Positions 1 through 48,300 of a stretch of DNA of 64,000 nucleotides are shown here, one piece after another. Position 1 is the stretch's first letter, and every line of letters begins with the position of its first letter. The notes beneath the pieces were generated by a model. The model was not told where the DNA came from. It made no database searches and saw only the letters and a list, made by a program, of their open reading frames with translations. The position numbers were made by a program, and so were the translations under genes. Origin of the DNA: a virus; the IMG/VR virus record IMGVR_UViG_3300020448_000002, positions 32,001 to 96,000 of that record. The stretch is one strand, 5' to 3'.

Positions 1-558
1 AAACAAGAAGATAATCTCAATGATTTTATTTTTGAGTCAACAATAACAGATAAGAATGTATGTAATTATCTCATAGATCAATATCATATGATGGAGCATC
101 ATGAAGGTAGAGTGACTAACGATCAGGAAAATTATGTCAATACTAATCTCAAGGTGACAGAGCAAAGTTTTGTTGAACCAGATCATGCATCATACCAGAC
201 AATATATGAGTGTATAGATAAGACAATTAGTGTACTACCATATAGATTAACTATACCTTATGATATAACTTCAACTGAATATTCTATTAGCAGGTATCTA
301 AAAGGTGAAGGACACTTTGGAACTCATGTTGACACAACATCCAAAATGACTTATAATAGGCTTCTTGCCTTTATATTATATCTTAATGATGTTGAAGAGG
401 GTGGTGAGACTGAGTTTATGACTCTTAACAGATTAGTAAAACCAGAAACAGGAAAAGTATTATGCTTTCCTTGTAATTTTATGTTTCCTCATAAAGGCAA
501 TATCCCTTTATCGAATGATAAGTATATTGTCACAGCATTTGTTTATCCAACATGGTAA
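1..558 (+). CDS. 2OG-Fe(II) oxygenase (prolyl-4-hydroxylase-like), 5'-truncated by window edge
   Basis: Frame is open from base 1 (KQEDNLNDF...) into the ORF-track start at 88; HVD...LAFILYLNDVEEGGETEF...FPH...KY motifs. Confidence 0.85.
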   Translation, partial: KQEDNLNDFIFESTITDKNVCNYLIDQYHMMEHHEGRVTNDQENYVNTNLKVTEQSFVEPDHASYQTIYECIDKTISVLPYRLTIPYDITSTEYSISRYLKGEGHFGTHVDTTSKMTYNRLLAFILYLNDVEEGGETEFMTLNRLVKPETGKVLCFPCNFMFPHKGNIPLSNDKYIVTAFVYPTW

Positions 559-3991: not shown

Positions 3992-4261
3992 ATGCCAACA
4001 TTTACACTCACAGCCGTTGACGATGACGGAACGGTGACAACCAAAGAATTTTCATCACCTTTCTTAGCAGAGGTGGTAGAAAAGACTGATGACTTCTTAC
4101 GAGGAGTAGGATTTGTCTATGAAGACCTTAGAGTAATTCATAGTGATGAAGACTACGATACGATAACAAAAGAAGGAATAGTTCGTAGCGAAAGCAAAAA
4201 ACGAAAACCATTCACACCTGATTCATCTGTTTATAAAGATGATATAATCGGTATTGAATAA
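3992..4261 (+). CDS. Hypothetical protein
   Basis: ORF track; follows promoter-like element. Confidence 0.7.
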   Translation: MPTFTLTAVDDDGTVTTKEFSSPFLAEVVEKTDDFLRGVGFVYEDLRVIHSDEDYDTITKEGIVRSESKKRKPFTPDSSVYKDDIIGIE

Positions 4262-27300: not shown

Positions 27301-30300
27301 ATGGTCTACTAGTTGGAGATCAGGTTACCATCTATGGTGCTAACCCAATCATCTATAATGGAACTTTCTTAGTTACATCAAGAGATTCTACCACTGTATT
27401 CCAATATCAACTACCTCAACCAGGTGGAGTTATACCACAAGGTAATATTCTTGTTTCTATTGACCTTAATAAGGGTAAATCATCAAGTGAACAAATTTTA
27501 ACTGCTATTGGTTCGTACACCACTAACGTTCAGAACACATTTTTCAACGACAATTACGTTTACGTTGCTTCTACAGGTATTCCAAACTATGACATAGGTC
27601 CGTTTCCTGGTTCTGCACTATTGCCTGGTAACCAAAGAAAATTAAACAGATTCCCAAGAGTTGCTCAAACTATATCTACAAAGAACTTAATTAATCCAGG
27701 TCCTGTTGGAACTTGGGTTAATGGTGTTTCTATATGGTCATATAAGTCATCTCTATTCAAAACATTTGGTGCTGTAACTGGTATTACAATTACTAACACT
27801 GGTAAAGACTATGATGCTGCGTCACCTCCTAATATTACTATTGCAGGTGGTGGAGGATCTGGTGCAACAGGTTCTGTTGTTGTTAACGGTTCTCTTAGTG
27901 AAGTAGAAGTTCTTACTGGAGGATCTGGTTATACATCCTCACCATTGGTCTCTATAGTCGGTGGTAACGGGTCTGGAGCTGCTGCTACTGCCATTATAAC
28001 CAAAGGTGTTGTTTCACGTATTCTAATCAATTCTGGAGGAACTGGATATACTTCACAACCATCAATTACTATTGTTGGAGGTGGTGGAACTGGTGCAACT
28101 GCAACAGCAAACGTCAGAGGTCCTATTCAATCTATTTCAGTTGATCAAGGTGGTGCATCATATACCTCTAAACCAACAGTAACACTAAGTTCTGGATCAG
28201 GTGCTGTTGCTCAAGCAATTGTACAGAATGGTCGTATTATATCAATCGCTATCATTTCTGCAGGGTCAGGTTATACAACTGCTCCTATAATAAGCATTCA
28301 AGGTGATGGATTTGGTGCTGTTGCTAGAGCAGGTATTGATGTTGATGGTGAAAACGCAGGAAGAGTTACAAGTGTTCAGATTCTTAATAGAGGTATTGGA
28401 TATATTCAAGGAACCACATTAATTAATCTAACTTCAGTTGGTCAAGATGCATTATTTACAGCAAATGTATTCCAGTGGACTTATAACTTACAAGCAACTA
28501 GTGTATTAGATACTGCTAAAGGTGGAGTATTTGAAGGATTTAATAATCAGTACGGTGGTGAATATGCTCACTTATCAAACCCACAAAGACTAAGATATGT
28601 TCTTGGTGATAACTTACAAGAACCAACAGTAGGAACTATAGTTGAACAAGCAGAACAGTTAAATCACTCACCTATTGTTGGTTGGGCATTTGATGGAAAC
28701 CCAATTTACGGTCCTTATGGTTATGCTGATCCTACAGATCAAGCATCTGCTATCAATAGATTAAACAGTTCTTATAAACTTAAAACTGAACTTGTATATG
28801 ATGTAGTTACAAATCCTTATCCTAGCAGAACTGCAGGTCCTTTACTAACTGAAGAGGCAGCAGGTAACTTTGTAGAAGATTATGAGTATGTGTTTGGTTT
28901 AGGTGATCTTGATCAGTATAATGGTCGTTTCTGTAAAACACCTGAGTTTCCTGCAGGTAGATATTGTTACTTCGTTACTATTGACACTACAGAGCAAGGT
29001 AATGCAGTATTTCCTTATGTTTTAGGTCCTAGTTTCAACTCTGTTGTTGATACTTGGAACTTAACTGACGGTGCAACACAACAGAATATTCCTACTGGTG
29101 TTGTTAGATATCGTGATCCATATGAGAACGTTGATATTGACGTTGAGAGGGCACCAAATGCCTCTACAAACGCTCTAACTACCGAAGACGGTGAATTGCT
29201 CCTATTTGAAGTAGAAGACGAGAATAGAGACGCTGTGATCTCTCAGGATGAGATAGATGATCCTGATCAAATCTTTGAAGAAGCACCTCTACAGTTATTT
29301 GATTATTTCCCTAAAGTTAAGTTTGACTCTAAGGTTGATATTGAAGTTGAGACAATTACTAAGTTTGAAGATGCTTCTGTAACTGGATTTACAGTAGAAA
29401 ATCCTGGTACATCATATCAGGTTAATGATAGACTAGTATTTGATAACACAGATACTGATGGTACTGGTGTTTCTGCTCGTGTTTCTCATATTAAAGGAGA
29501 AGCAGTTTCAACATATGGGTATGAAAGTATTGGTGGTATCAACTATGGTGTTCTAAAAACTACAACTCCACATAACTTATCTGTTGGTGATCAGGTTGTT
29601 GTAGACTATACACCTATAATGAACAACACTAATAAGACTTTTGTTGTTAAACAAATAAAAGGTGTTGAAGAGATTGTTATTGATCAGCAAGGTTCTGGAT
29701 ATAATAGTGAATTACCTCCTACAATCATTCTTGATGGTGATGGAACTGGTGCAGCATTAGAAGCAGTTGTAACAACTGTAGGATCTATTGCTTCAGTTAC
29801 TATTACTAACTCTGGTCAAAATTATACTACAAACCCAAGAGTTATACTATCACACCCTCAAATCTACAAAAAAGCAGATTACTATATTTCTAAGATTGCA
29901 AATGAGGATTATGTTAAGGTTAATGATGTATTTGTAAATGATGCTAAAGAAATATTCATTTGTGGTAAAACAAAAGATTCTTTTGGATATACTATTGGAT
30001 TCTTAGCAAAACTATCTGCTACTGGTGTAAAGGACTGGGAGAAGACACTTAAGAGTACTGATGGACAACAAGAAGTAGAATTTGAAAGAATATTGATTGA
30101 TGGACAAGATATTTACGTTGCAGGTCACAATAAACCAAATGCAAGTATCTTAGAAGCATATAACCCTGATGTTATTCTTTGTAAGTATACACAGGCAGAA
30201 AATGGATTAAGTGCTACTTTACAGTATCAGAAAGCATATGCAGGTATATCTGGTTCTACTCGTTCTGATAATATTAGTGCTATTGCAAAATACTCTGACA

Positions 30301-33300
30301 CTAGATTTGTTTTAGGTGGTTTTACTAATACTAACTCTGGTAATCCATTTGATGCTTATATTGCTGTTGTAGACACACTTGGTAACTTTGCTGTTAAGAG
30401 AAAGATTACTTCTGTAAATGTTTCTGAAAAAGTTACAGATTTACTTGTAAATGGAACTGACATATACTATACACTAGAAATTGCTACAAGTCCTAATGCA
30501 ACAAGCGTTGACACAGGTATTGGTAAAGCAACTGTAGGTACTAGTGCAATTACTCTTGTTTGGACTAAGCAATTAACTAATACACTGTATTCATTCATGG
30601 ATACAAGTCTTACTGTTGATGAGTTTAGTGAACTATACCTTACTGCTACAACAAGACTTAAAGCAGATAATACAACTAAAGATGGTTTCTGGATTGGTAA
30701 ACTTAATACAGAAGGTGTATTCCTTTGGAATTATCGTTATGCAGTAACTGGTGGATACACTGTTAATGTTGCTAAGAGAACTCATATTGATATATTTGGC
30801 GATCTTAACATTGCTCTTAACAAATATCAAAATACAGATGGTGAATTAACTGTTGATGTAATTAAAGTTGGTTATAACGGTATTATTAAATCACAGACAA
30901 ATAATAAATTTAATCTTAATAATGTTGAAGGTGTAACTGCACATACTTTATTCCCTGATAGTTCTGGTGATGTTCATGTATATGGTCAGACTTCTTGGAA
31001 TAGAAATGAACTTCTAATACCATTTACAAGTGGTGCAACTACAGATGTTACAGGACACTATACAGCAACGTTTGTAGGAGATGGAAACTCACTTCAATAT
31101 GACACTTCTAATGGATATGCAAAATTACTAGGAAAAGACTCTACTACTCCTAGTACTTGGGTAAATTCAGTTATACAAGTTAATGGATCAGATTTAACAA
31201 CTAAAATGACTGGCGACTGGACTATTGAGTTCATGTTGTTTAAAGATGCTGCTAATAACAATAATACACACTCTCAAACACAACAAACCCTAATAGCAAT
31301 AGGTGATGCAACCTTATCTACTGGTGGTCTATGGTTGTATTATGATATTGCATCTGGAGAGATGCAGTTAGTTGTTACTGCAAATGGAACTGCACTTAAC
31401 TCTGCATCAGGTTCACTACAATCTACAGTTACAACAATGTTTGCCGATAATACTTGGCAATTTGTTGCACTTACTAAATCTGCAGGTCAATTTACAGCAT
31501 ATGTTAATGGTATACAAGTTCTTCAAGGAACTATTGATAATACTGCATTCCAGAATCAAAATCTATACATTGGTAATATTCCTGGTAAGAGTGGAACATT
31601 AAATCAATTCCGTTCTAATGAACAAGGTCAATATCATGTAGATAATCTTCGTGTTAGAAACAGAGCTGTTACTCCTACAGTTCCTAATGATGTTACTAAC
31701 TATCCTATTGCAGGTGAGTTTAGTGAAGGATTCACATGGACTGATACATCATGGTTCTCTACTTACACTAACAAATATGATTATATTGATTATGTTGGTT
31801 GGGGTTTAAAAGTTGATAAAAACTCTGATGCTGCAAGACTTGGAACTCAAACTGTTCAAACTAACACACAAGTTGGATTTGTTAGAACTGCTATTGCAAT
31901 ACAAACAGGTTCAGAATTAACTGTTAATAATACTGGATTTGGATTAGCAGAAGCAGGATTCCAAAACTTAGACTTTGATGATGCTGATACAACAATGACT
32001 CAAGATTCTGATTCATTAACTTATGTTCAAGATGTTTGGAGTTCTAGAACTGCTACTGTTCCTTCACCAGGTTCTCAAAAACTAAGAGTTACTGCAGTTG
32101 TTAAAGACAGATACTACTTTAAGGTTACACCTACAATCAAGATTGATAATATTCAAGAACTTACTCTAAATCAGCAGTTTAGATTTACTACAGGAACAAA
32201 ATTAGTATTAAGAAGTTCATCAGGATCATTCATTAATAGTGGATACATTATTAGACAAAATTCTGTAGGTAATAAAATATATCTTGCTGTTAATAATAAT
32301 GCTTGGTCAAATGATCTTAATACTGGTGAATTAAGTACAGAACAGTTTAATGAGCAAAGCACTTATGGAATTGTAGGTCCTATACCCGCAGATATTAATG
32401 AACTTATATTTACATTCCCATTATTAAACAATACTACACCTGGTACATTTGATATTGATTTAAACAATTTCAATCACCCAGAAGGAGGTTCAAATAATCT
32501 TGATGAATTAACTAACTTTAAACCTTATACTGATGATGATTACTCTATAAGAATTGATGAAGTATCTGGTGGTTCACCTTATATTGTTGGATCTGTTGTT
32601 AATATTAACTCTGGTGATATTAGTTTCAATGCTGCATATACAACTGCACAAATTATTAATTTAACTGGTGTTCTTAAGATTACTTTAGTAGCAACACTTA
32701 AGAAGATTATACAAGTAACTGGTGTTGCTAATAGTGATGAAGTTTATATTGTTACTGGAAATAGTCATTACCTTACTGAAGGTGAAATGGTTAATATTGA
32801 TGGTAACCCATCACAAACTGTTGATAGTGTAGTTTATGATGAATATGATGGTGCTTTCCCAGTTCATACTGTTGTAAGTCCTGTTGAATTTACATATAAG
32901 TTACCTTCTGCTGCAATAACTGCACCAGCTACAAGTTCTGGAAGTGTTAATATCTACGTTAAGTCACCTGTTCTTAAAATGTATTATGGACATCAATATC
33001 TCTTTGATGTTAGTCATTCTTCTATGGCAGGTGGTAACTTATCATTCTCTAAAGATAATCTCTACAAACTAGAATACTCATTTAACTCTATTGAAAGAGT
33101 AGGTACACCTGGTATTACTGGTCAAGGTGTTGCAAATCCTACTGTTAAATTAAAAGTTGATTCTGATATTGTTACTAATATTTCTTATTACTTTGACCCA
33201 TCTAGAACAGGTGATGATTCTCCTGTTATTAAAGCTAGTTACTTAGACGTTGTTAATTCACCTTACGTAGGTAATTTTACAATTAGTTCTACATCTGGTG

Positions 33301-36300
33301 CAACTATTACTCGTGGTGCAGATACATTCAAATTCCCACTTGCTAATGAACCAGAAGGTATTGCTGATGTTATTAATACATCTTACAGCACTAGTTCATT
33401 AAAAGCAGTTGGTTCTATAAGTGATATTCGTATTGTTAATGGAGGTGGTTTCTATACTAGACTGCCAGTTGTTACAACTATCCAGTCATCTAGACAAATC
33501 GAGAGAGTTCAAATTGATTCACCAGGTACTGAATATGCTGTAGGTGTTTATAATAGTGTTCCTATTGCAGGTGATGGAGAAGGTGGATTTGTTTCGATTA
33601 CTGTTGCTGATGGAACTGATGATGAAGGAGTAACTATTCCTGGTCAGATACAGTCTGTTGTTGTTACATCACCAGGTAAAGGATATACTACTGCAAGTAT
33701 AGATGTTGAATCAATATCAGGTATTCTTGGAGCAGGTTTAACAGGTTCTGGTGTTGATTTGAATGTTGTTATTCCTCCTGCAGGAACAGGTGCTTCTATC
33801 TTTACTAAAGGAACTAAAGTTGGTAAAATTAAGAAATTACAGAACAACAACTTTGGATATGATTATCCTCATGATTATACTTTACGTCCTGAGATTTCAT
33901 TCCCGATTAACGCACAGTTAACATCTACAAGTATTCTAGACAGTATTACAGTTACAGATCCAGGTTCTGGATATTCACAAGCACCAACCGTTGTTATTAC
34001 TGGTGGTGGTGGAGCAAATGCAACTGCTGAAGCATCAATTAAGAATGGTCGTTTAGATGATATTATTGTTAAAGATCCAGGCTCAGGTTACTCTTCTGCT
34101 CCTACTGTTGCATTAAGATCATCCTTTAACTATGTTGTTAACCTTGACTTAGGATTACTACAATTTGCTTTCCCACATGGTATTGTAAATGGTTCTGAGG
34201 TTACCTTAACAGTTACTGATACTGGTGATGGTGCTGAGTTCCCATTAGCAGCAGGTGCTATTGGTCGTTTGAACTCTACTAACACATATTATGCTATTGC
34301 AGGTACTGCTAATTCTCTAGAAGAAAACCAGTTAAAGATTGCTATTACTGCTGCTAACGCTGCATTAGGAGATTCAATATCATTTGTTAACGCAGGAACA
34401 GGTCGTCAAACAATATTAACTGAATCATTTGGTGGTGCTGCTACTGCAAACGTTATTACTTCTACATTCTTAGAAGGTGAACTTGTTTATCAAGGTGATA
34501 GTTTAGACGCTGCAACTGCTAGTGGATATGTTTCTACTAACCAAGGTTGGCAGGTAGGACCTAGAATTATTAAGATTGTTGATTACACTGGAAACTTTAA
34601 TGCTAACGAAAGAATAACAGGTGTTATTTCTAAATCTTCTGGTGTTATAAGTGATCTTAAGATTGCTCGTGGTGTTCTTGAAATTGGTTCTATTACTAAA
34701 ACAACTGGTCAATTTATTGATGACATCGGTAAACCATCTGAAATTATTCAGAAGATTCAAGATAGTTACTATTATCAAGATTTCTCATATGCTGTTAAGT
34801 CTGCTGTTTCTATTGGTGAATGGAAAGAGATATTACTTAAGAACGTTCACCCTGCATCATTTAAAGTATTTGGTGAATTAAATCTATCCGATTATGGTCA
34901 AATTCCTAATAAGGAAACTGATTTCCAGATAACAAAAGCTGTTGAATTAGCAAGAGAAGCAATTGTACCTAACATTCAGAGTTTCTCTCTAGTTGAACCA
35001 GTATATTCACAGTTTAATAACTCAGAAGTATTATTCAGACAGAAGAGATTAACATCTTCTGAGAACATTTTGACTTCTGTTGTTCAGCGTATTGATGATA
35101 TATCAAATGAATTTGATGGAGTTAAAACACAATTCCAATTAAAAGTTAATGGTGAGAACGTAGTTGCTAATGCTAACCAGTTAATGATCATCTTAAATGG
35201 TGTTGCTCAAACTCCTGAGACATCATTTAATATTCAAGGTGATTCTATTGTATTCAGTCAACCACCACAACCACCTGCAAGTATTAAGTATGTAAACGTT
35301 ACTATCGAACAGATTACTATATCCGTTCTTGAATTTACTAATATTAGTGGAATATTCCCAATCAAGGGAAATACAATGACTGGACAGACTTCTGGAACTA
35401 GATTTACTGTTACAACTGTTGTTGGTCAAACTGTTCAAGGATTCTTTGTAGAAGGAACTGCATTCCTTGCAGATGAATTAGTAAGTAATAGTGCTACTGG
35501 ATTTATTGCAAACTATGCATCAGTATCAACTCTTTCAAATCTTGGATTATTTGTATTTGGAGAGCAGGTTTCAAACCTTACTGGAGAGACTGCTAAAGTT
35601 GAAGCAATTAACTTAGCAGGTGGTTCTGAAGCTCCACTTGGTCAATTACGTTATGGTATAGGTCCTTCAACTGCATCAGTTGAAGTTGTAGCAGCAAAAA
35701 CAGTTTCTACTGATCCTGATACAGCTCCTGTTGCAGGAACATTTACTGTAAGTGGTAATTATCAGATTGGTTCTGAAATTGTAACTGTAACTAATATTAC
35801 TACTAACAATGACTCAGTTACATTAGAAATAACTAGAGGTCAATTAGGTACTACAGCAGCAACACAGGCAGAAGATGGTCCTGTATATGCAACCACAGTT
35901 CTTGTTAATGACAAATTAACTTTAAGTAAAACTACTGGAACATATCAGTCTACACCTGGTTTATTTGATCTTGCTCTTAATGATGTTATTATCGGTGCTC
36001 AGTCTGGTGTAGTTGCAAGATTGACTGCTACATCAACATATCAAGATCCTACAACTAATGAGTTTATTGGTCAGGTTAATATTTCAGAAGGATCTTCATT
36101 CTTTGGATTACTATTCAACAGAGTTACATCAATTACATATCCAAATATTGTTCTAGATGATATTTCATTATCAACAATTAGTGTTGTTGACTATACAGAC
36201 TACGTAACAGATATTGATTCTCAATTCCCTGCTAACGAATTTATAAGTCAAATTGTAATTCCTTACGATAATGCTTCTGGCAAGTTATCTGTAGGAGAGA

Positions 36301-39300
36301 AAATTAGAAATTATAAACTTGATTATGGTAATAATGTTGGAACATTTAATAGTGGTGAATCTGGTAAGTCTAGAAAACTATCATTTAAAGATAAGGTAGG
36401 AACTGGTCTATTTTCTACAGGTGATACAATAAGAACTAGAGATACTAAAGCAGAAGTAATTGGATTTAATTTCTCAGGTAATACAATATATCTTGGTAAG
36501 ATTGGTAGATCACTAAGAGGTGGTGCTGACTATCATCAATTTAACTTCTCTGGTAGTGCTCAATTAGATACTTCAATTAAGAAATTTGGAGATTCATCAT
36601 TACAACTTGATTTAGCAACAAGTGATTATATTCAAATTCCTGCATCATCTGAATTTACTCGTGGTACAGGTGATTATACTATTGAATTCTGGGTTCGTTT
36701 AGATGCAGTATCATTAGCAGATACTAAGACTCTACTTGATATGAGAACAAGTGCTACTGAAGTTGCACTTAGAATTTACTTACAAGCAGCACAAGTTCGT
36801 GTTAATGTTAATGGTTCAGATATAGCAACTTCTGGTGGAAATGCTCTAAACAATAATGTTTGGTATCATCTTGTAATTCAAAGAACTGGAACTACTCTTA
36901 AGATTATATCTAATGGAGTTGAGATTGGAACTGGAACAGATAGTAGTAACTATACATTGGATAGACCAATCAGAATAGGTGCAGATTTATCTGGTCTTAA
37001 TCCTATAACTGCTCATATTGATGAGTTTAGATATTCTACAGTTTCACGTTACGATACATTACCATTTACTTCTCCTAATGGTATTTTCCAAGGAGATACT
37101 GATACTAAAGTATTATGTCACTTTGATGGTGCTGATGGTGCAACTAAGACTGAAGATTGGTCTGGTGGTGAATCATTTACTAAGGGTGAATATGTTAATA
37201 ATGATTCTATATTAACAACATATAGTTCAAATCCAACTGCTGCTCCTGTAGGATTTAATACTAAGAGTCACAGATATATTAACGCTGCAGATTTATTGTT
37301 AATGAACAAGGAATACCTTGCTCAAGAAACAGTTTATATTATGAAAGAAGTATTCCCTGCACATAGTGTTAAGGGTAGTGAAGTTGATTGTGAAGATGAT
37401 GTAAGAGATGTTGTTGATGCTATTGTAGAAGATTTACGTAATGGTAGTAATCATCATATGTGGAAAGCAGCTTCATACTATGTTAATAGAGAAGTCAATC
37501 CAATTCAAATTGTAAACGTAGAAGATGATGTCTCTATGACAGTCTATGTTTATGAAATATTAGATAAACTTGCTAAGTATATTGTTAATAATGTTCCTTG
37601 GAGTACTCAAGGTGATCATGGTGTAACACAAAAATTTGACACTTCTATTACATTTGATGGTTATACAACTCAAACATTAACTAAGTTTACACCAACAGCA
37701 ATCGACTATCATCCATCAATGGGTGACATGGAAATAACAGCTGCAAGTCATGGACTCGCGGCCCCTAGAACTATAACAGCAACAGACTCAGGATACACTG
37801 CTACCACTGGTGTTTTGACGATTCAATCTGTTGGGCACAGTCTAGAAACTGGGGACAGAATTAAGTTTGAACCTAATTCTATTACCATGACTTGTACTTG
37901 TGATGGTAATACAGTATCACAGAGTTATCCTAGAGATGATGATCCTGCAAACCAAGGCTGGTTGGAGGTATCAAAGATTGATAATGACAACTTTAGTGTA
38001 AATGTTGGAACATCTCCAACAGTCAACTTTACTGCAACTGCAGCAGATTATGATAGTAATACTGGTTTCTTAACTATGGACATTGGTGACAATGACCTAA
38101 GACCAGGCAGTAAGTATACTGTTTCTAACGCTGCATATAATCCTACTAGTGGTGTAATGACAGTAAGTATTGGTAACGATCAATATAATGTTATTGATGC
38201 TGATTACAGTCCTCTAAGTGGAGATTTAGAAATCTTTGTTATGTCACATAATCTAAAAACAGGACAGAAAGTTAAGATTGCTAATGATGGTCTTACATTC
38301 AGATGTTCTCAAGATGATTATGCTACTGATCACCCATATCCAAGAGCAACTGACCCTGCACGTAATACAGCATTAGAAGTTATTCATGTAACTGATACAT
38401 CATTCACTGTAAACGTTGGTAAGTCTCCTATAGTTACTTACGATGTTTCTAATGCAACATTCAATCCTAATACAGGTGATATGGAGTTGACTATTGGAAA
38501 TCATAGTTTGGCTTCAGGTACTTCTATTAGAATAGCAACTCAAAGTATTGGATTTACATGCACATATGGTGCAGGTGTTCACTACTATCCAAGACCTCTA
38601 ATTGATGAGCACGTTCCAACTAATGTAGCATACAATCCAACAACAGGTGTAGTAACATTTACTGTTACTCAAGGACATGGAATTAAGAATGGTGATAAAG
38701 TTAAGATTCCTGATTATACACTTACATTCACATGTGACAAAGATAATAATGCAACTGAACACAGATATCCTAGACCTTATGATCCTATTAGTGATAAATG
38801 GATTCCAGTAAGTAATGTTCAAACAACATCATTCGATGTTCAAGTATTAGATAATGCTCCTTCAACAAATACATCTACTCATACCTTTGTAAGTTTTACA
38901 GGTGTAATTCAACAGAAACGTGATAAATCATTTGAACAATCTGTTGCAATTACTGGTACAACTGGAACAACTATTACTCTTAATGTTGGTATTTCAAGTA
39001 ATACAACAACTCATACATATTCAACTTCTAAAGCAGGTGCTGTAATTACTGGTGGTAATTATAAGCATAAGTTTAGATCTGCAGTTGATAATGCTATAAC
39101 AGTAGAGCATGGATTATATGTTGGTGATAGAGTCATGTTTGATAGAGACTCACTAACATTTACATGTCTTGAAGATAGTAATGCTACTGAGCACACATAT
39201 CCAAGAATTACAGATCCTTATTATAATAAGTGGTTACCTATTTCTAATGTAACTCATACAACATTCGATGTTCAAGTATTGAGTTCTACCCCTTCTACTA

Positions 39301-42300
39301 ACCAAACTGCTCATACATTTGTTCGTGCTAAAGTTAATGGTTTAACAAGATCTGGTGAAACACTAAAACTTGCTAAAGATGCATTATCATTTACATGCTC
39401 ACAAGATAATGATGCTACTGTTCATTCTTATCCTAGAGTTGATGATTCTGTTTATAATACTGCTATTCCAATTTGGAGTAATGGTAGCACTAAGATGACT
39501 GCTCAAAGTGCAACTTATAATACTGCAGAAGGATTATTAATTATTACTATACTGAATCATGGTTTAACAGTTGGAACTGAAATTAGATTAGAAAATAATT
39601 CTCTTGTCTTTACATGTGCTAAAGATGGCAATAAAACAGAGCATTCATATCCAAGACCTAAAGATCCATATGCTGCTAGATGGTTAAGAATTAAAGCGGT
39701 TACTGATCATACATTCACAGTGTTTATTGGTGAAGCAAGTTCTACAGGTCAATTTGCTCATACATTTGTAAGAGCAGTTAAAGATGGTATTATCAAACGT
39801 GATAACACTGTTACTGTTAACGTTGGTGCTACTCCAACTAAGGCGTATACTCCATCTGCTGCAACTTATAATGCTAGTACTGGTGCTTTAGAATTAAATA
39901 TTGGATCACATAGTTATCCTGCTCCAACACAACATACACCAACTGATGTTGCTTACAATCCTGTTAGTGGTGTAATGACTCTGACTATTGCAGGTCATAA
40001 CTTCTCTAATGGTGAAAAAATTAAGATTGCTGATAATGGTATTAAATTAAGTTGTCCTTATGGTGGTGCAACTGGAACTGCTGCACAGAAAGATTATCCA
40101 CGTTCTACTGACCCAGTTAGCAATAAATGGATTCCAATATTCAACGTAACTACAGATACTTTTGATGTTCAAGTTTTAGATTCAACTCCTTCAACTAACG
40201 TTGATACTCATACATTTGTAAGTGCAGTTACTAACTGTGTTAGCAAGGCAAATTACACTGTTAAACTTGCTCCTGATTCATTACTAATGACATGTGATAT
40301 GGATAGTGGTGCTACTAAACATGTATATCCAAGATCTAATGTTGCTACTCATACTCCATCTACAGGTACAAGTTACAACCCAGTAACAGGTGCTCTTACA
40401 GTTTCAATTCCTACTGAATCATTTACTGCTAGTGCTGCAAATTATAATGTTACAACAGGTGCTTGTGTATTAACAATATCTCAGAATGCAGGATCATATA
40501 ATGTTACTGGTGCAACTTATTCACCTTCTGTTGGAACTTTAGTTCTTACACTTGGATCACATAATTTAACAACTAATGACAGAATTAAAATTACTCCAGA
40601 ATCACTTAGATTTACTTGTGATTATAATAATGATAATAATACAACTGTTCATCCTTATCCTCGTGCTGCAGGTGCATACAACTCAACAAATTCAAAAGCA
40701 GATTACGCTTATGATACATGGTTAGACATTAGTGCAGTTACAGGAACAACAATTACTGTAAACGTTAACGGTGGTCAAGGTGCTATTACTGATATTAGTA
40801 ACCATACATTTGTTGGTGCACTTGATGGTGCAGTTCAAGTTGGTCATGGTATCGTACCTGGCAATAAGGTTAAACTTGCTCCTAACTCACTAACATTTAC
40901 TTGCACATTAGATGGTAACTCTGCACAGAAATCTTATCCTAGAGCAACAGGTGCTAATACAACAAGTGGTGCTGACTATGCTTATGATAAGTGGCTCAGA
41001 GTTATGGATGTTGGAGATAATACAATAACTGTTAACTTGAATGGTGGTCAAGGTGCCATCTCAGATACATCAGCACATACATTTGTTTCTGCTACTGCTA
41101 ATGGTATTACCCTTGGACACGGTATGGTTGCTGGTACACCTATTAAGATCAAAGATGGTGGCGTAATATTCAGATGTGCTCATGATAATAATGCTACTTT
41201 ACATCCTTATCCTAGATCAACTGACCCTGCAAGTGATAAGTGGTTGTTTATTAAGAATGTAAGTGATACTCAATTTGAAGTTGATATTTTACAAGGAACA
41301 ACTCCTACAAATACTACAACACATACCTATGCAGGTTCTATTGATAATTGTATTGTTCAAGGAGATCCACTTGTTGCTCAAGCAATTCCGATTGATGCAG
41401 TTACAGGTAATACTATTACTATCAATGCTTTAGATGGATATACACCTTCATTTACACCAAACCATACTTTAGATTCTGTAGCAACATCTCAGTTTACACC
41501 AACTAATGCAGTTTACAATGGAACTACAGGTCTAATGACCATAACAGTTCAAACTGCTAACTTCCAACCTTCTACTGTTGCTTATAATGCGATAACTGGT
41601 GAGATGCAAATGACTATTGGAACTCATAGTTTGGCAGTTGGAGAAGAAATATTAATTGCTCCTAATTCACTAACATTTACTTGTGATTTTAATGGAGATG
41701 GAAATACTACAAATAAAACATATCCTAGAGCAACAGGTGCTGCAACTCCTAGCGGTGCAGACTTTGCTTACAATAATCAATTAGTAATTACAGACACCAC
41801 AGCAACAACTATTACTGTAAACGTAAATGGTGGTGGAGGAGCAATTACTGATACAACCAACCATGTATTTGTATCGGCATTAGCAGATGCAGTCAGTGTT
41901 TCACATGGAATCAAGAACGGTGAAAAAATTAAGATTGCTGATAATGGTATTACATTTACTTGTACTCATGATAGTAATGCTACAAACCATCCATATCCAA
42001 GAGTAACTGATCCTGCTAGTGGTAGATGGTTAGATGTTCATAACGTCACTAATACTACTTTCGATGTTCAAGTATTAGATGAAATTCCTTCTACAAATAC
42101 TACAACTCATACATTTGTTTCTGCTACAACTAATGCGATTACAAGAGCAATAATTTCAACTGGTGGTAACTATAAGCATAAGTTTATATCTGGTCTTACA
42201 AACGGTGTTAGAACTGGTGGTGACTATACTCATACATTTGTTTCTGCTACTTCTAACGGTATACATGTTGCAGGTGATTCAGTTTACATTGATACTAATT

Positions 42301-45300
42301 CACTAAGATTTACTTGTTCTCAAGATGATCATTTAACACAACATGATTATCCACGTCCTACTGATCCTGCAGCTAAGCATGTAATGGAAGTTAAGGCTAA
42401 AGATGATAATAGATTTGTAATTAACGTTGGTAAATCTCCACAAGACAAACGTTATGATCACTTATTTGTTAGTGGCGATGCTAATTCTATCACTAAGTCT
42501 AAGTATGTAATTACAAATTGTTCTGACGTTTACACAACTACAAACAACTTAATTGATATTCTTAGAGATACAATAACTCAAGCTGCTTTACCATCTCCTG
42601 TAGATCATCTTGCAACTATTACTGATCTTCTTCCAGTAGATGAATTTGTTGGTGGAACAATTCATTCATATCTTGAAGTACCATTCAAAATTACATATGA
42701 AGATGATGCATCAGAAATGGTATACACAGATAGAATTGATGTATTCAGTCGTTACAGATTCCGTGATGCTGCTAATTTAATTCGTCAAAATACAGGTGCT
42801 ATTGTAGATAAAGCATCTTATGATATGTTAATTCGCTACCCTGCTCTTTATCAGGATATGCCTAGAAACCAAGGTGGTACATCTACAGATGGAATCGAGC
42901 GTTGTAAGACTGACCTTACACAGGTTTGTGGTGGAGTTGCTAATGATATAGAAAATGGTGGTAATAAGAATGTTGTTACTGCTGCAGGATTCTACCTTGG
43001 TCAAAATAATGAAATTCAACATATTAGATTACAGTTACCACAATCAATATATGTTCATAACCGTTTAGTATACTACTTAAAGCAAGCAATAGATGGAAGT
43101 TTAACAACTGATAATACAGAAAATCTTATTGTTGGAGATTGGGGTATTACAAATGATGATAGTGTAACAACTTATGATGTATATGATGCATCTTATGACG
43201 CAGCAAGTGGTGATTTAGTGATGACTCTTGCATCAAATACTGGAACATTTAGTGTTAGTGGTGCAGTCTATAATCCAACATCAGGTGATTTAGTTCTTAC
43301 AATCGGAACTCATACTTTAACAACTAATGATAAGGTTGGAATTGCTGAGGAATCATTAGTATTCACTTGTGATTACAATGGTAATGGTAATCAAACTCAG
43401 AAGAGATATCCTAGATCATTTGGTGCTGGTACAACAAATGGTGCTGATTATGCATACAATCAATTCCTTGATATTACAGCAGTAAATCAATCTGGTGGAA
43501 CAATCACTGTTAACGTTAATGGTGGTCAAGGTGCTATTACAGATACCACAACTCATAACTTTGTTGTTACTCCATCTGCTACAAATGCAGTTACTGTTGG
43601 ACACGGATTTACTGCAGGAGATAGTTTACAGATTGCTAATGAGGGATTAACATTTACATGTTCAATGGACGGTAATGTTGCTAATAAAACATATCCTCGT
43701 GCAACTGATCCTGCATATGGTAAGTCACTTACAATTACAAATGCTACTGCTACAACAGTAACTGTTAATGTAGGAGCTTCTCCAGAAGTTAAGTATACTC
43801 CAACATTCGCAACATATACTGCTACAACTGGTGTATTAGTTCTTACTATTAGTAACCATAATTTAGAAGTTGGTCAACCAATTAAGATTAATCAAGGTGC
43901 ATTGAAGTTTACTTGTGCAATGGATGGAAATGAATCTATCAAATCTTATCCAAGAACTAGTGATCCATTCTACAACCAACCTATTGATATTACTGCAACT
44001 ACAGCAGATACTATTCAGTTAAACGTTGGGCAGAGTCCATTAGTTTTACACAACGTTTCTAATGCTACTTACGATCCTACTACAGGTGTAATGGTATTGA
44101 CAATAGGAGCTCATACTTTGACTGCAGGTACTAGCATTAAACTTGCTACTGAATCATTAGTCTTTACTTGCACATTAGATGGTAATACAATTCAGAAATC
44201 ATATCCTCGTGCTACTACTGCTAATACAGGAAGTGGTGCTGATTATGCATACGATACTGCAATCAATATTGATTCTGCAGATACAGCAGCAGGAACTATT
44301 ACTATCAACGTAAATGGTGGACAAGGTGCTATATCTGATACATCAGCACATACATTTGTTTCTGCTAATGCAGGTGCTGTAAGATCAGGTGGTGATTATG
44401 TTCATACATTCCATTCTGCAGAGACTGAATGTGTAATCTCAGGTGGTGAATATACTCACGTATGGGCAGGTGGTACTGCTACCGATGTAGTTAGTGTTAT
44501 CGGTGATTGTGCAGATGTTAAGAGTAATATCGAATCATTAATTAATACAGTTAATGATATTATTGCACCTACAGGTCTAGATTATGATACTGCAGGTAAT
44601 AGACTTTACTTTAACAGAGAACTTATTGCTTCAGATGTAACTTCTAGAATGTTAACTGAGTTTACATATCAAGCAGGTCCTACAACATACTTTGCATTCC
44701 AATTTGGTGGAACTAATATAACAGCAGCAGAATTCCAAGCAGATGTTGAGGTAGTTATTCAGAATCTAATATCTGATTTACAGACTGGTGGTAATAATAG
44801 TTCTATCAGGGCACTTGAAGAAACATATCTCAATGCAGATGGAACACTTCATAGAATTGAAGATATGCTTTTACCAACCGTTTATGGTATGGAAGTTCTT
44901 AAGGAAGCAGGTAGAGAAGCAATTAGAAATAACATATACAATGCATCAGAAAATATTCCTTTCGGTGGATATGTAACAAACGCTGCTCAAACACCTTTCA
45001 GAGATGATTTAGAGACTGTAGATATTGATCAAGTAATTGGAGATTGGAATAATCTTCTTGATCATGTAATTGAATTCTTCTCACCTGGCAAAAAAGAGGC
45101 TAGGAATGGTATGAAGAATATTCTTTATAATGTAAACTATTATAAGAATGAATTAAACAACCTTGTTAATACTCAGTTTGGTAATGGTGCTTGGGTTTAT
45201 AATGATTTTGTTGATGAGTTAGTTGGAAATATAGTTCAAGACTCTGTTACAACTCCTATAGATCATAAGACTACAGCAAGAAGACTAACTCTTACAGGTG

Positions 45301-48300
45301 TAAGTGGAGAATTTATAGTTGATCAAGTTATAACTGCTAATGGTGGTGGATACGCTAAGATTCTTGAATGGGATAGTAAAGATAGACATTTATATATCGG
45401 ACCTTTCCTTAGCGGTACAATTTCTGCAGGTGAAACTATTACTGGTAGCACTGCAGGTGCTGCGACTATTGCAACTGGAGGAGTTGGTATTCCATTTGAT
45501 TGGTATACACGACCATCAAACGTTGAAATTCTTAGAAATGCAAGATTAATTAGTTCTACTGTTCAAGATCAATTAATAGGTCAAAACGTTGGTTACAATT
45601 ATCCAGAAGATTTATCTAGTGGTAATACACTTACTGAAGTAACTATATCTACTGATAGTGCTGTTGCACCTGATAACGCAGTTACTGCTGATAAGATTGT
45701 TGCTTCAACTACTGTTGGTGAACATTTGTTGTTCAGAAATTATAGTTTAAGTGCATTTGAAACATTTGACGGTGGCACAGTTAGATTTGACTCATCAACA
45801 GAAACATTTGATACTGGACAAATAGGAACTACTGAATCACAGCAATTTACTTACTCTGTATTCTTAAAAGCAGGTGAGTATAGTAAAGTTCGTTTCGAGA
45901 TGGCTCTTGATAGAGATACTACTCAAAGACAGCAATTATTCTATGATATTGATTTAACAAATGGAACTACAGGTAGTATCTTCCAACCTCAAGGTGGTCT
46001 TACAGTAGATGCAACTGGAGTGATTCCTTATGGTGGAGGATGGTATAGAGCATACGGAACAATTACATGTTCATTTGGTTTCTCTCAACTTCGTCAACAA
46101 ATTCAAATTAAGAATGCTACTGGTCAAACTAGTTTTGCAGGTAATGCATCTGATGGTGTCTTTGCATGGGGTCTAAAACTTACTAAAGGAACTATTGATC
46201 CTTATGCTGCTACAAGTGGAGATGTATTCTACGCTGATACTGAATACAATATTAAGACATATACAATCGATAGATTAGAAGAATGGATGTATGATGCATT
46301 GAAAGATCAACTTGTTAATCCTTCTCCTAGTGCAGCGTTTACACCTTTCTTCAGCGATAGTGCATCTACTTATTATCATCCAGATTCAATTCAAAGATTA
46401 GTAAGATATAGTTTAGAAATTGTTCGTAATCAATTATTAAATAGCACTTACTATACTGATATTATTGTTCAGAATGGAATAACTGTTCCAACTAAAGATT
46501 ATGGAACATTCGACCTTCCAGTTGCTCTTGCAGGTGGTCTTGATGGTGCTGATTACTTATATGGTTTAGAAAGTGGATCATATGCTGAATTAGAGAAAGT
46601 TACTATAAACGAAGGTGAAGTTGTTCAAGTATATCAAAGATTCCGTATTGATAGTAATATTGTTGATGGTCCTTACTTCATGAATGAAGTTGTTCAAAAA
46701 CAAGGAGACTCAACTGTTACAGGTGTTGTATATGGATTCTATGAAGATGATAACTTTAAGTATCTTGATGTTGCAGTTACTGGTGGAACATTCGCAGTAT
46801 TAGATTATGTTGTTGGTGCAACTAATACAACAACTGCACAAATTAATGCTATTGAAGATAGAATACAAATCACTGATCTTGAAGGAGAATTTACTGATAA
46901 CATTCCATTCAAGGGATATGATACAGGTGAAACTGCAATCCCAACTGGATTCTTAAAAGCACAAGCTGCTGTTACTGACAATAGTGGTGGTAAATTAACT
47001 GTTGATACTGAAACTCTAATAGGTACATTTGAAACATCTGCTGTAATATATCCTGAGCAATCAAAATTATTCTTAGATGTTTCTAGGTATGAAGGATTAG
47101 ATGTATTGATTGGTTATAGAATTTCTTCTGCAGGGCATACAAGAATTGGTATTACAATTCAAAATAACAAGAACGTATTTACAGTTGGTAATAAACTCAA
47201 TAAGATTACTAACGGTGTTATTGATCCTAATAACTATGGTTATATTACTGAAGTTGATATTGATAATAATATTATTTACTACATCTTAGCAGCAGGATCT
47301 ATTACTAATGGTGATCAAGTTGGTGACTTTGGACCTGCACCTGATCCACTCAATCCATTAGGACACGCAGTAATTAATACTAAGTTAGATGTTGCAGGAG
47401 CTGCTAGTGCAGTAATTCAAGACATCAAAGATGTTGGTGTTAACAAACGATTCTATCTAACAAATGTAACAGGAACATTCAGTGGTAGAGATGGAATCTT
47501 TGGTAAGGATAATTATAAAGCATCAGTTATAACTAAGACTGATCTTAGAGGACGTGTTGAACGTGCATTCAGAGGATTTGATGGAACACAAACTAACTTT
47601 AAGTTAACCATCTCAAACGGAACCAAGTACTTCCCAGATCCTGCAGGACATATGTTGATCTTCATCAATGGTGTTCTACAACCACCAGGTTCAGCAAATG
47701 CTTATACAGCATTCTCAGATAACATCCAGTTTACTGAAGCACCTGATCTTGGAGCATCATTCACAGGATTCTATGTTGGTAAACTAAGACAATTAGATGA
47801 TATATCATTTGAGTTTGATTCATTACGTCAGTCATTCAACTTGAAACGTGACGATGTGTTCTACTCATTGACGCTGACTGATGGTGTTCAATCTTCTACA
47901 ATCTTACCAGAAAATAATATTATTGTTTCACTGAATGGTGTTATACAGGAACCAGGCGTTGGTTTTGAACTAGTTGGTTCTAGAATAATCTTCTCTGAAA
48001 TTCCTCGTGTAGGATCAACATTCGTTGCATTCTCATACGTTGGTTCTGAAGCAGACGTTGATGCTGCAGAAGTTGTACCACCAATAGAAGTGGGTGACTT
48101 CATTGACATCCAAGGTGAGACCGAAGATAGACAGGTTGCTGTTATCGAATCTTCTAACTCCTTGATTACATTTGATTATCTTGGATCTGTATTTGGACAG
48201 AATGCTTCAGCATCTGCTACTCTCACATCTGGAACTATTGATAGAGTTCAAGTAACATCTGGTGGATCTGGTTATACAACTAGACCAAATGTAAGAGTTG

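What the first reader, a model, noticed from the sequence alone, without database searches (positions are those of the whole stretch)
37683..42497. Recursively nested, branched tree of 15 homologous domains inside the giant baseplate protein
Seen in the translation: one ~100-aa unit (opening hairpin xxYxxxxGxxxxxI, then H.L..G..I.I....L.FTC..D....H.YPR..DP...W.....T.T..VNVG, closing strand HTFV.A...I) occurs 15 times but not in tandem. Copies are inserted into loops of other copies, and the pieces balance like parentheses: D1[D2[D3[D4[D5[D6[D7]]]][D8][D9[D10][D11[D12[D13]]][D14[D15]]]]]]. Only D7, D8, D10, D13 and D15 are contiguous. Three openings in a row (GTSYNPVTG / ANYNVTTG / ATYSPSVG, from 40338) are resolved last-in-first-out by 41360. 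Closing segments stack at 42147-42269 (AIIST / GGNYKHKFISG / GGDYTHTFVSA). Insertions reuse a few positions: after the first hairpin, after H.L.., after YPR, after VNVG.SP. D3 and D9 each carry three inserts, so they are branch points; depth reaches 7. Inference: a single polypeptide folds into a dendritic, multivalent antenna on the baseplate, grown by repeated domain-into-domain insertion, which suggests an unusual diversification mechanism. I do not know of a description of this architecture.
Basis: partly seen in the sequence, partly recalled or inferred. Interest (0 to 1): 0.92.

Follow-up and report, generated by a model that had tools for sequence, protein, structure and literature searches.

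The report
Nested tree of beta-barrel domains
A giant baseplate protein of a marine cyanophage carries 19 copies of one small beta-barrel domain plugged into each other's loops up to seven levels deep, which appears to be the deepest and most branched same-domain nesting described so far.

Summary
The 8033-aa gp7-like ORF (24384-48485) contains 15 copies of a ~100-aa unit at 37686-42494, and 4 more at 43173-44489. HMM fragments parse as perfectly balanced brackets: 19 domains, 0 errors, depth 7, and 0 of 100,000 fragment shuffles parse. After child spans are cut out, all 12 split domains realign as single full-length units.

Four independent lines support true nested folding:
- Covariation learnt only on contiguous copies picks the nested partner far above chance.
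- AlphaFold2 models of D14[D15] and D5[D6[D7]] score pLDDT 94 and 90.
- In the second model, split D6 aligns to the same single-domain barrels as contiguous D7.
- The two pieces of D1, ~1500 residues apart, dock with ipSAE 0.61 against 0.01 for controls, at the covarying positions.

One correction: D9 closes at NHTLDSV, so D14[D15] hangs from D3.

The unit is an E1-FCCH / endosialidase-barrel-like fold, which is known as an outward-facing phage tail decoration.

Nesting is family-wide in cyanophage gp7, with 20 topologies among 35 clean parses. It is stable among close relatives, so it is old accretion, not active diversification.

There is a precedent: recursive HABAS insertions in cyanobacterial RNA polymerase Si3 (8-10 domains, six levels). 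Function is untested.

The parts
24384..48485 (+). 8033-aa gp7-like giant baseplate/virion protein (single ORF)
   Evidence: ORF listing and translation. Pfam Baseplate_wedge PF23786 at aa 683-729 (39.2 bits, cut-off 27), YHYH at aa 1388-1536, LamG at aa 2297-2431 and 4079-4217. About 70% nucleotide match to P-SSM4 gp7 (PSSM4_080, 7312 aa).
37686..42494 (+). Tree 1: D1[D2[D3[D4[D5[D6[D7]]]][D8][D9[D10][D11[D12[D13]]]][D14[D15]]]]], 15 domains, depth 7
   Evidence: Stack parse, rejoin test, coordinates.
37686..37772 (+). D1 N piece (hairpin plus H.L..); its C piece is 42270-42494
   Evidence: The two pieces dock with ipSAE 0.61 against a best control of 0.01. Rejoined, they give 98.6 bits over profile positions 1-101.
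42270..42494 (+). D1 C piece (rest of B, C, closing strand)
37773..42269 (+). D2 span. Own pieces 37773-38027 and 42210-42269 (closing GGDYTHTF).
38028..42209 (+). D3 span, the main branch point with four inserted subtrees (D4, D8, D9, D14). Own pieces 38028-38114, 39345-39494, 39795-39845, 41484-41492, 42144-42209.
   Evidence: Rejoined: 121 aa, 69.2 bits, profile positions 1-100.
38115..39344 (+). D4 span, D4[D5[D6[D7]]]. Own pieces 38115-38183 and 39102-39344.
38184..39101 (+). D5 span, D5[D6[D7]]. D5 own 38184-38438 and 39048-39101; D6 own 38439-38609 and 38901-39047; D7 38610-38900.
   Evidence: AlphaFold2 gives pLDDT 90.1 and pTM 0.67. Split D6 aligns to single-domain barrels.
39495..39794 (+). 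D8, contiguous, inserted mid-C of D3
39846..41483 (+). D9 span, D9[D10][D11[D12[D13]]]. D9 own pieces 39846-39932, 40245-40352, 41358-41483 (closes with NHTLDSV).
40353..41357 (+). D11[D12[D13]]: three hairpins in a row, then three cores closed last-in-first-out. D12 span 40422-41111; D13 40497-40841.
41493..42143 (+). D14[D15]. D14 own pieces 41493-41561 and 41901-42143; D15 41562-41900.
   Evidence: AlphaFold2 gives pLDDT 94.3 and pTM 0.83, with the outer hairpin at pLDDT 96.
43173..44489 (+).
37269..37652 (+). Flanking module before tree 1; homologous to 42753-43169 before tree 2
   Evidence: Pairwise BLASTP gives 25% identity over 144 columns, E 3e-10.
42507..42590 (+). Segment right after tree 1 (..C.DV...); similar to 44496-44579 after tree 2
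   Evidence: Pairwise BLASTP gives 36% identity over 28 aa, E 4e-4.

Best explanation
What it is. The stretch encodes a branched, recursively nested cluster of 15 copies of one ~100-residue, eight-stranded beta-barrel domain. With a second tree the protein holds 19 copies. They sit inside the giant gp7-like baseplate protein of a T4-like Prochlorococcus cyanophage.

How it works. Each unit starts with a beta-hairpin and ends with a closing strand that lie next to each other, so its two chain ends are close together. A whole unit can therefore be plugged into a surface loop of another unit without breaking it. About five loops accept inserts: after the hairpin or H.L..G, after FTC, after YPR, mid-C, and after VNVG.SP. 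Repeating this gives a tree in which only the leaves are contiguous. Outer domains can complete only when their late segments appear, so closure is last-in-first-out. D1 closes after about 1500 residues.

Context. Both trees sit at the same position of a repeated flanking module, so they are side branches that leave the main chain continuous.

Fold and likely function. The unit is a distant relative or look-alike of the E1-FCCH and endosialidase beta-barrels. Those barrels are known as outward-facing decorations of phage tails.

Shown by computation: nesting at the sequence level, its family-wide occurrence, and predicted nested folding.

Inferred:
- The trees arose by old domain-into-loop insertions.
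- They form a compact multi-barrel appendage at the baseplate periphery that most likely mediates weak multivalent contact with the host surface (about 50% for this function).
- A conserved His/Cys/Asp/His set may hold a structural metal.

The confidence given here is for the nested architecture and fold, not for the function.
For: Sequence:
- There are 19 hairpins, 19 YPR cores and 19 closings.
- The balanced parse has 0 errors, and 0 of 100,000 shuffles parse.
- All 19 rejoined domains are full length.
- The unit occurs in no other ORF of the window: 27 hits, all in this ORF, out of 34 ORFs of at least 100 aa.

Pairing, using couplings learnt on 1013 distinct contiguous copies only:
- The nested hairpin ranks first among all hairpins of its protein in 84 of 198 split domains (chance 17.6). 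It beats the inserted child's hairpin in 247 of 309 comparisons.
- The closing strand ranks first in 89 of 339 (chance 32.2) and beats the child's in 279 of 434.
- For halves split after YPR, the own half ranks first in 54 of 117 (chance 11.4) and beats the child's in 168 of 189.

Structure:
- D14[D15]: pLDDT 94.3 and pTM 0.83. The outer domain had only 16 alignment rows, and all 61 single-domain rows were placed on the inner copy.
- D5[D6[D7]]: pLDDT 90.1, pTM 0.67, no segment below 50.
- Both models show the same order of eight strands per domain.
- In 10 of 50 VIA rows the aligned range is 82-85..277-290, which matches the bounds of split D6. These rows have 61-79 aligned residues, rmsd 2.5-3.6 and Z 4.8-5.6, against single barrels of about 85-100 residues. 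These are the same families that match contiguous D7.
- The D1 pieces dock with ipSAE 0.61 against a best control of 0.01. That mark was reached by 58 of 80 solved complexes and 2 of 110 mismatched pairs. The runs agree in at least 95% of contacts and the partner's pLDDT is 80. My own alignments were used, so the calibration counts hold only roughly.
- The D1 contacts fall on columns 14-18 with 72-77 and 1-3 with 98-101, which are the top covarying pairs.

Family:
- 264 proteins reach E<=1e-3 among 621 candidates, and 485 representative clusters match.
- There are 35 clean parses of at least 4 domains among 329 proteins, with 20 topologies. P-SSM4 gp7 parses as [[[[][]]]].

Fold:
- UBA1 FCCH: Z 7.3-7.9. 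phi92 endosialidase barrel: Z 7.0-7.4, rmsd 2.1-2.6.
- PF16190 matches 5 of 66 copies and reaches its cut-off in relative P0013 (30.4 against 29.5 bits) inside a unit.
- The nearest named Atlas cluster is a viral E1_FCCH cluster, score 0.91.
- FCCH domains face outward on siphophage tail tubes (PMC13576161, passages read).
Against: - No coordinates could be inspected. Nested packing in the two AlphaFold2 models is inferred from pLDDT, strand order and VIA ranges, and a VIA range gives only the first and last aligned residue.
- Only one- and two-level nests were folded. Depths 4-7 and the branch points D3 and D9 are extrapolated.
- The complex test used pieces in trans, with my own alignments.
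- The split domains in the covariation counts include orthologues, so they are not independent. Subfamily ancestry as well as physical contact could give the signal.
- Of 329 related proteins, only 35 parse cleanly. Summed over all of them there are 559 errors and 838 unclosed openings. Many are truncated metagenomic genes or beyond the HMM's reach, but hidden exceptions cannot be excluded.
- All fold matches are below Z 8, which the tool notes can mean only a common arrangement.
- Nothing tests binding, metal content or position in the virion.
Confidence: 0.82

Rival explanations
1. Nested in sequence but partly strand-swapped in space. As reported for some recursively inserted HABAS domains of RNA polymerase Si3, parents and children would exchange strands, so the units are interdigitated rather than separate barrels.
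For: [quoted passage not shown] The own closing strand beats the child's in only 279 of 434 comparisons (64%), the weakest of the three covariation tests. Short extra strands appear in the linkers of the model (83-86, 140-143, 242-245, 287-290).
Against: The hairpin and half-domain tests favour the own partner in 80% and 89% of comparisons. Split D6 superposes on ordinary single barrels. The D1 pieces dock at the positions that covary in uninterrupted copies.
Confidence: 0.12
2. Not nested. The hairpins and the short closing segments are independent mini-repeats forming their own sheet or stalk, or they pair with sequence neighbours, and the B-C cores are separate incomplete domains. On this view the bracket balance is a by-product of tandem duplications of sub-segments.
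For: A A BCD BCD could in principle arise from two separate tandem duplications. Some relatives have plain tandem arrays (P0134 and P0138 parse as ).
Against: Counts match exactly, 19/19/19, and the order is balanced, with 0 of 100,000 shuffles parsing. All rejoined units are full length. Covariation prefers the nested partner over the neighbour's. The isolated outer hairpin is modelled at pLDDT 96, whereas a free hairpin would be expected to score low. The D1 pieces dock specifically.
Confidence: 0.05
3. Assembly or annotation artefact: a mis-assembled repeat region or a fused ORF.
For: Repeats can mislead assemblers, and the gene is 24 kb long.
Against: The identical 19-domain tree is found in 8 independent relatives (7 viral contigs L003, L005-L009, L011 and protein P0002) at 85-97% identity. 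The copies are only 24-62% identical to each other, which is too diverged to collapse. Isolate genomes P-SSM4 and P-RSM3 carry 7312-aa homologues.
Confidence: 0.01

Closest known systems
Si3 insertion of the cyanobacterial RNA polymerase beta' subunit (RpoC2): recursively inserted HABAS / hybrid-motif domains
   Same: One small beta domain family is inserted into copies of itself over several levels, giving discontinuous hosts. PMC13114784 describes eight domains in a six-level recursive architecture in Prochlorococcus marinus RpoC2, and 8-10 domains in six cluster representatives. PMC11515920 describes nine HABAS domains inserted into other HABAS domains (passages read).
   Different: The domain is different: FCCH / endosialidase-barrel-like, and no RNA polymerase chain appears among the 50 listed VIA rows, which does not exclude one. 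The context is different: a phage virion protein. There are more units (15+4), greater depth (7) and true branching (up to 4 subtrees in one host). Five insertion sites are used, and many topologies occur across the family.
E1 FCCH-like beta-barrels on siphophage tail tube proteins (PF08813 class) and UBA1 FCCH (PF16190)
   Same: The fold is a small closed antiparallel barrel with Z 7.3-7.9, rmsd 2.5-3.0 and 76-79 aligned residues. There are weak Pfam hits. In phage tails the domain faces outward as a decoration (PMC13576161).
   Different: Those barrels occur as single copies fused at an end. Here the unit has an extra N-terminal hairpin, its own invariant motifs (Y, G, H, FTC, YPR, D, HTF), and is nested. 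The window's own copies do not reach the Pfam cut-off.
Beta-barrel domain of phage endosialidases (PF12195; phi92 endosialidase 4hiz)
   Same: Z 7.0-7.4, rmsd 2.1-2.6 and 78-85 aligned residues. Two of 66 copies hit PF12195, best E 0.0022. From my recollection, not from a call, this barrel is itself an insert in the sialidase propeller and binds sialic acid.
   Different: It is a single insert in an unrelated host domain. No sugar-binding residues were compared here.
T4 gp7 baseplate wedge protein and the giant gp7 fusions of P-SSM2 (orf113) and P-SSM4 (orf080)
   Same: There is an N-terminal Baseplate_wedge match. The gene order is gp6-like, giant gene, gp9-like, large gene, gp8-like, with matching sizes. 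Sullivan et al. 2005 (PMC1079782, passage read) noted these >15-kb genes fused to gp7 homologues and read them as baseplate-attached tail-fibre subunits.
   Different: That paper does not mention the repeat or its nesting in the passage I read. T4 gp7 itself is about 1000 aa (recalled) and lacks this unit.

Membership tests
T4-type gp7 baseplate wedge protein (Pfam PF23786 Baseplate_wedge) | Pfam match above the gathering score | tested here: met
   39.2 bits against a cut-off of 27, at aa 683-729, covering profile positions 175-221 of 284 only.
T4-type gp7 baseplate wedge protein (Pfam PF23786 Baseplate_wedge) | Position in the baseplate gene cluster (gp6 - gp7 - gp9 - ... - gp8) | tested here: met
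   Window ORFs of 675, 8033, 408, 1389 and 510 aa in a row mirror P-SSM4 gp6, gp7, gp9, a wedge subunit and gp8. This rests on order and size only; the neighbours were not searched.
E1_FCCH (PF16190) | Sequence match reaching the Pfam gathering score | tested here: not met
   In the first 101-aa copy (D7) there is no PF16190 hit at E<=1. Five of 66 aligned copies hit at E<=1, best 0.00095. Relative P0013 reaches 30.4 against 29.5 bits by summed weak stretches, the best of them inside a unit.
E1_FCCH (PF16190) | Six-stranded closed antiparallel barrel that superposes on solved FCCH domains | tested here: inconclusive
   Z 7.9/7.9/6.2 and 7.4/7.3/6.1 for 9mc4_A, 4p22_B and 2v31. The tool notes that Z under 8 may mean only a common arrangement.
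Endosialidase beta-barrel (PF12195) | Sequence or fold match | tested here: inconclusive
   Two of 66 copies hit, best E 0.0022, below threshold. For 4hiz_A, Z is 7.4 and 7.0.
Recursive same-family domain insertion (architecture type of RNAP Si3) | Host and insert belong to one domain family | tested here: met
   All 19 rejoined or contiguous units match one 102-position profile at 69-140 bits.
Recursive same-family domain insertion (architecture type of RNAP Si3) | Inserts are themselves hosts over several levels | tested here: met
   The parse depth is 7, with D7 and D13 at level 7.
Recursive same-family domain insertion (architecture type of RNAP Si3) | Interrupted hosts still fold as one domain | tested here: met
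   This rests on prediction only and on covariation. There is no experimental structure.
HABAS / sandwich-barrel hybrid motif (the Si3 domain itself) | Fold or sequence match to HABAS domains | tested here: inconclusive
   No RNA polymerase chain appears among the 50 rows shown, and none in the PDB sequence search. Absence from a list does not exclude a relation.

The most novel reading that the evidence does not exclude
The nested trees are metal-stapled, obligatorily last-in-first-out folding units, and their topology is the evolvable part of the cyanophage's host-recognition apparatus.

Each barrel would bind a metal through the near-invariant His22/Cys41/Asp57/His90 set. That would lock the late-arriving closing strand onto the core. 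It would also make the virion carry on the order of a hundred metal sites (19 per chain times the gp7 copy number).

The lineage-specific tree shapes (20 topologies in 35 clean parses) would set the spatial pattern of weak glycan-binding barrels, and thereby host range.
Probability: 0.12. Interest if true: 0.88.

Novelty: new variant of a known kind. Interest (0 to 1): 0.74.

Why it matters
A 2026 survey of 2.7 million classified domains singled out the six-level, eight-domain Si3 of cyanobacterial RNA polymerase as its showcase of recursive insertion (PMC13114784). Such surveys rest on ECOD; I believe, from recall and not from a call, that the underlying predicted-structure sets leave out giant viral proteins.

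This protein goes further in several ways:
- One tree has 15 units, seven levels and real branching.
- A second tree lies beside it.
- Hundreds of relatives carry different tree shapes.

This makes two questions directly testable on a natural series of variants:
- How does a chain fold when a domain's halves are up to 1500 residues apart?
- Which loops of a small barrel tolerate whole-domain inserts?

For phage biology, it assigns a concrete architecture to about 2000 residues of the largest, unexplained virion gene of abundant ocean cyanophages. It also points to an outward-facing, FCCH-like decoration role.

For annotation, it shows why domain finders see only fragments here: Pfam returns nothing for the unit.

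Tried and rejected
Searches that led nowhere:
- Pfam on both halves of the protein gave no family for the unit.
- Pfam on the tree flanks gave nothing at E<=1.
- Foldseek against the PDB gave no match at E<=0.001.
- BFVD returned only uncharacterised cyanophage relatives.

PDB sequence search. It gave one hit, iota-carbonic anhydrase 7c5x, E 0.00023. I rejected it because it is the sum of three weak partial stretches (i-E 4.9 to 360) over 43 profile positions, in a protein that I recall has a different fold.

First alignment for the second fold. Alignment A5 (the four-level D4 sub-tree) was dropped before folding. MAFFT put the distant rows' first hairpin on A4 instead of A5, and one row was mostly out of register. 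I folded the three-level D5 sub-tree instead (A6, checked). In A6 one of the 74 rows (L139:9406-10335) still had its N part in insert columns.

Deeper alignments from BLAST-colinear hits. For the D4 and D9 sub-trees these hits turned out to have other topologies, so depth 4 and beyond was not folded.

Recent self-duplication as the growth mechanism. This is not supported: parent-child identity is 36% against an all-pairs mean of 37.6%.

Phycobilisome-like Pfam hits in relatives. I checked these as a possible identity for the flanking module. In P0013 the hit lies about 575 aa upstream of its tree, and the window's flanks do not hit.

Literature. Searches found no description of this nesting in cyanophage gp7. 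The library holds open-access papers and bioRxiv only. Supplements were closed, so Table S8 and File S1 of PMC3037559, which may show whether the gp7 orthologue was detected in virions, were not seen.

Limits of the parser:
- Of 329 related proteins with fragments, 294 did not parse cleanly or had fewer than 4 domains.
- I did not separate truncated genes from true exceptions.
- Rows dropped before counts: domains whose joined length fell outside 85-135 aa, and domains in unclosed or erroneous sub-trees; identical sequences were counted once.

Full report
**Where it lies.** The finding sits in one ORF, 24384-48485 on the + strand, of 8033 aa.
- The N-terminal part matches Pfam Baseplate_wedge (aa 683-729, 39.2 bits against a cut-off of 27).
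- Further along are a YHYH domain and two LamG-like domains.
- The DNA of the stretch matches only T4-like Prochlorococcus phages, at about 70% identity over a quarter of its length. There it falls in the 7312-aa gene annotated gp7 / virion structural protein.
- The neighbouring ORF sizes mirror P-SSM4 gp6, gp9, a wedge subunit and gp8.
- Sullivan et al. 2005 (PMC1079782, passage read) already noted that P-SSM2 orf113 and P-SSM4 orf080 are genes of more than 15 kb fused to gp7 homologues. They took them for baseplate-bound fibre subunits.

**Checking the observation.** The stretch is residues 4434-6038.
- YPR occurs 15 times there and 4 more times at aa 6342-6607.
- I built a 114-position HMM from the seven uninterrupted copies. 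Its local hits are fragments with complementary profile coordinates, for example 2-32 at aa 4435-4465 and 27-113 at aa 5963-6037.
- A hairpin-only HMM finds exactly 19 hairpins and none elsewhere in the protein.
- The five GG.Y.H.[FW] closings equal the five insertions after VNVG.SP.
- A stack parser that looks only at profile coordinates closes 19 domains with 0 errors and depth 7. None of 100,000 shuffles of the 34 fragments parses.

The tree is D1[D2[D3[D4[D5[D6[D7]]]][D8][D9[D10][D11[D12[D13]]]][D14[D15]]]]], plus a second tree D16[D17][D18[D19]] at 43173-44489.

Cutting out the child spans and rejoining the remainder gives one full-length hit for every domain. Hits cover profile positions 1-4 to 94-102 of 102, score 69-140 bits, and have joined lengths of 97-121 aa. 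The 15 domains tile aa 4435-6037 with nothing left over.

There is one correction. D9 closes at aa 5659-5700 with NHTLDSV, keeping the His that is 96-99% conserved. D14[D15] is therefore a child of D3, and AIIST is a linker.

**Do the pieces really belong together?** Homology alone cannot tell nested pairing from crossed pairing, so I used four further tests.

(i) Covariation.
- From 329 related proteins I collected 1997 parsed domains.
- I learnt column couplings on the 1013 distinct contiguous copies only.
- I then asked, for each split domain, which piece in the same protein fits best.
- The nested hairpin ranks first in 84 of 198 cases (chance 17.6) and beats the inserted child's hairpin in 247 of 309.
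- The closing strand ranks first in 89 of 339 (chance 32.2) and beats the child's in 279 of 434.
- For halves split after YPR, the own half ranks first in 54 of 117 (chance 11.4) and beats the child's in 168 of 189.
- The cases include orthologues, so they are not independent, and shared ancestry of the pieces could contribute. Either way the pieces are one unit.

(ii) AlphaFold2 on D14[D15].
- The model has pLDDT 94.3 and pTM 0.83, with the outer hairpin at pLDDT 96.
- The alignment did not impose nesting: all 61 single-domain rows were placed by MAFFT on the inner copy, and only 16 colinear rows covered the outer one.

(iii) AlphaFold2 on D5[D6[D7]].
- This sub-tree uses two other insertion sites. 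The model has pLDDT 90.1 and pTM 0.67, with no segment below 50.
However, in the VIA search 10 of 50 rows align single barrels of about 85-100 residues to model range 82-85..277-290, which is exactly the bounds of split D6.
- Those rows have 61-79 aligned residues, rmsd 2.5-3.6 and Z 4.8-5.6. A further 37 rows align the same kinds of barrels to contiguous D7 at 139-249.
- A range gives only the first and last aligned residue, so this is an inference.

(iv) The two pieces of D1 as separate chains.
- The pieces are aa 4431-4464 and 5962-6041, about 1500 residues apart.
- They dock with ipSAE 0.61 against a best control of 0.01. That mark was reached by 58 of 80 solved complexes and 2 of 110 mismatched pairs. 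The runs agree in at least 95% of contacts and the partner's pLDDT is 80. My own alignments were used, so the counts hold only roughly.
- The model supports binding; it does not show it.
- The closest contacts map to profile columns 14-18 with 72-77 and 1-3 with 98-101. These are the top covarying pairs of test (i).
- No similar complex is known to me from the fold searches, so a pass from memory is unlikely.

**What the unit is.** Both models give eight strands per domain: a hairpin, two strands, a short helix, one strand, two strands and a closing strand.
- Foldseek finds nothing in the PDB at E<=0.001.
- VIA gives Z 7.3-7.9 for the FCCH domain of ubiquitin E1 and Z 7.0-7.4 (rmsd 2.1-2.6) for the beta-barrel of phi92 endosialidase. 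It gives Z 5-7.5 for phage tail and tube proteins and for FAD-reductase or EF-Tu type barrels. All are under the level at which the tool warns of common arrangements.
- Three weak sequence leads point the same way. PF16190 E1_FCCH hits 5 of 66 copies, and PF12195 hits 2 of 66. PF16190 reaches its cut-off in relative P0013, inside a unit. The nearest named Atlas cluster is a viral E1_FCCH cluster at score 0.91.
- FCCH barrels face outward on siphophage tail tubes (PMC13576161, passages read).
- PHROGs place the unit in 'tail fiber protein' and 'virion structural protein' families.
- I therefore call the unit FCCH / endosialidase-barrel-like, not a member of either family.
- His22, Cys41, Pro53, Asp57 and His90 are 90-100% conserved in 1717 distinct domains. 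A single invariant Cys with two His and an Asp suggests a metal site, which is untested.

**Family and evolution.**
- The unit occurs in 485 representative clusters and in 264 giant proteins among 621 candidates.
- With a broader 102-position HMM, 35 of 329 proteins parse without error and hold at least 4 domains, giving 20 different topologies.
- Examples are P-SSM4 gp7, [[[[][][[][]][[][]]]]], and some plain tandem arrays. The other 294 contain errors, open brackets or few domains; many are truncated.
- Insertions cluster at profile positions about 20-31, 41-45, 52-57, 67-76 and 79-84.
- The window's tree is identical in 8 relatives of 85-97% identity.
- Copies are 24-62% identical to each other. 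Parent-child identity (36%) is not raised over the mean (37.6%), and no nearest paralogue is a parent or child.
- The trees are therefore old and change slowly. I see no sign of a fast diversification mechanism.

**Context.**
- The 144 residues before each tree are homologous (25% identity, E 3e-10), and the 28 residues after each tree are similar (36% identity, E 4e-4).
- This agrees with an earlier first-reader note. Both trees are inserts at one position of a repeated module, so the chain leaves the module, builds a tree and returns.

**Comparison with what is known.**
- Recursive insertion of one domain family into itself is documented for the Si3 region of cyanobacterial RNA polymerase. 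One description gives nine HABAS domains, some of them strand-swapped (PMC11515920). Another gives eight domains in a six-level architecture, presented as the extreme case in a survey of 2.7 million domains (PMC13114784). I read passages of both.
- The present case is the same kind of architecture in another fold and another setting.
- It has more units, one more level, real branching, and a family-wide spread of topologies.
- My six literature searches found no description of it for cyanophage gp7.

**Verdict.** Nested folding is well supported by prediction and covariation, at about 0.85-0.9. The function as a peripheral, multivalent surface-contact appendage is inferred, at about 0.5. I rate the novelty as a new variant of a known kind.

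Noticed in passing
43173-44489: A second, smaller nested tree, D16[D17][D18[D19]], with two stacked GG.Y.H.F/W closings at its end. It belongs to the same domain family as the tree in the finding.
   Followed up: yes
37269-37652 and 42753-43169; 42507-42590 and 44496-44579: The segments just before and just after the two trees are homologous to each other (25% identity over 144 columns, E 3e-10; 36% over 28 aa, E 4e-4). Both trees therefore sit at the same position of a repeated module. Pfam finds nothing in these flanks.
   Followed up: partly
all 19 units, e.g. 38610-38900: His22, Cys41, Asp57 and His90 (profile columns) are 90-100% conserved in 1717 distinct domains. There is exactly one Cys per unit. 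This may be a metal site.
   Followed up: partly
24384-36383: The N-terminal 4000 aa hold a partial Baseplate_wedge match (aa 683-729), a YHYH domain (aa 1388-1536) and a LamG-like domain (aa 2297-2431). A second LamG-like domain lies at aa 4079-4217, shortly before tree 1. There are also runs of G-rich short repeats (..GSGYT..P.V.I..), seen by eye in the translation.
   Followed up: no
relatives P0008, P0013, P0028 and others; P0013 aa 970-1022: Several giant gp7-like relatives carry a Pfam Phycobilisome (PF00502) match. In P0013 it scores 27.9 bits against a cut-off of 22.2 and lies between the LamG domain and the trees. The window's protein shows no such hit.
   Followed up: partly
relatives P0134, P0138, P0188, P0226: Some proteins carry the same unit as plain tandem arrays of 6-9 copies without any nesting. 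These are a natural control for what nesting adds.
   Followed up: no
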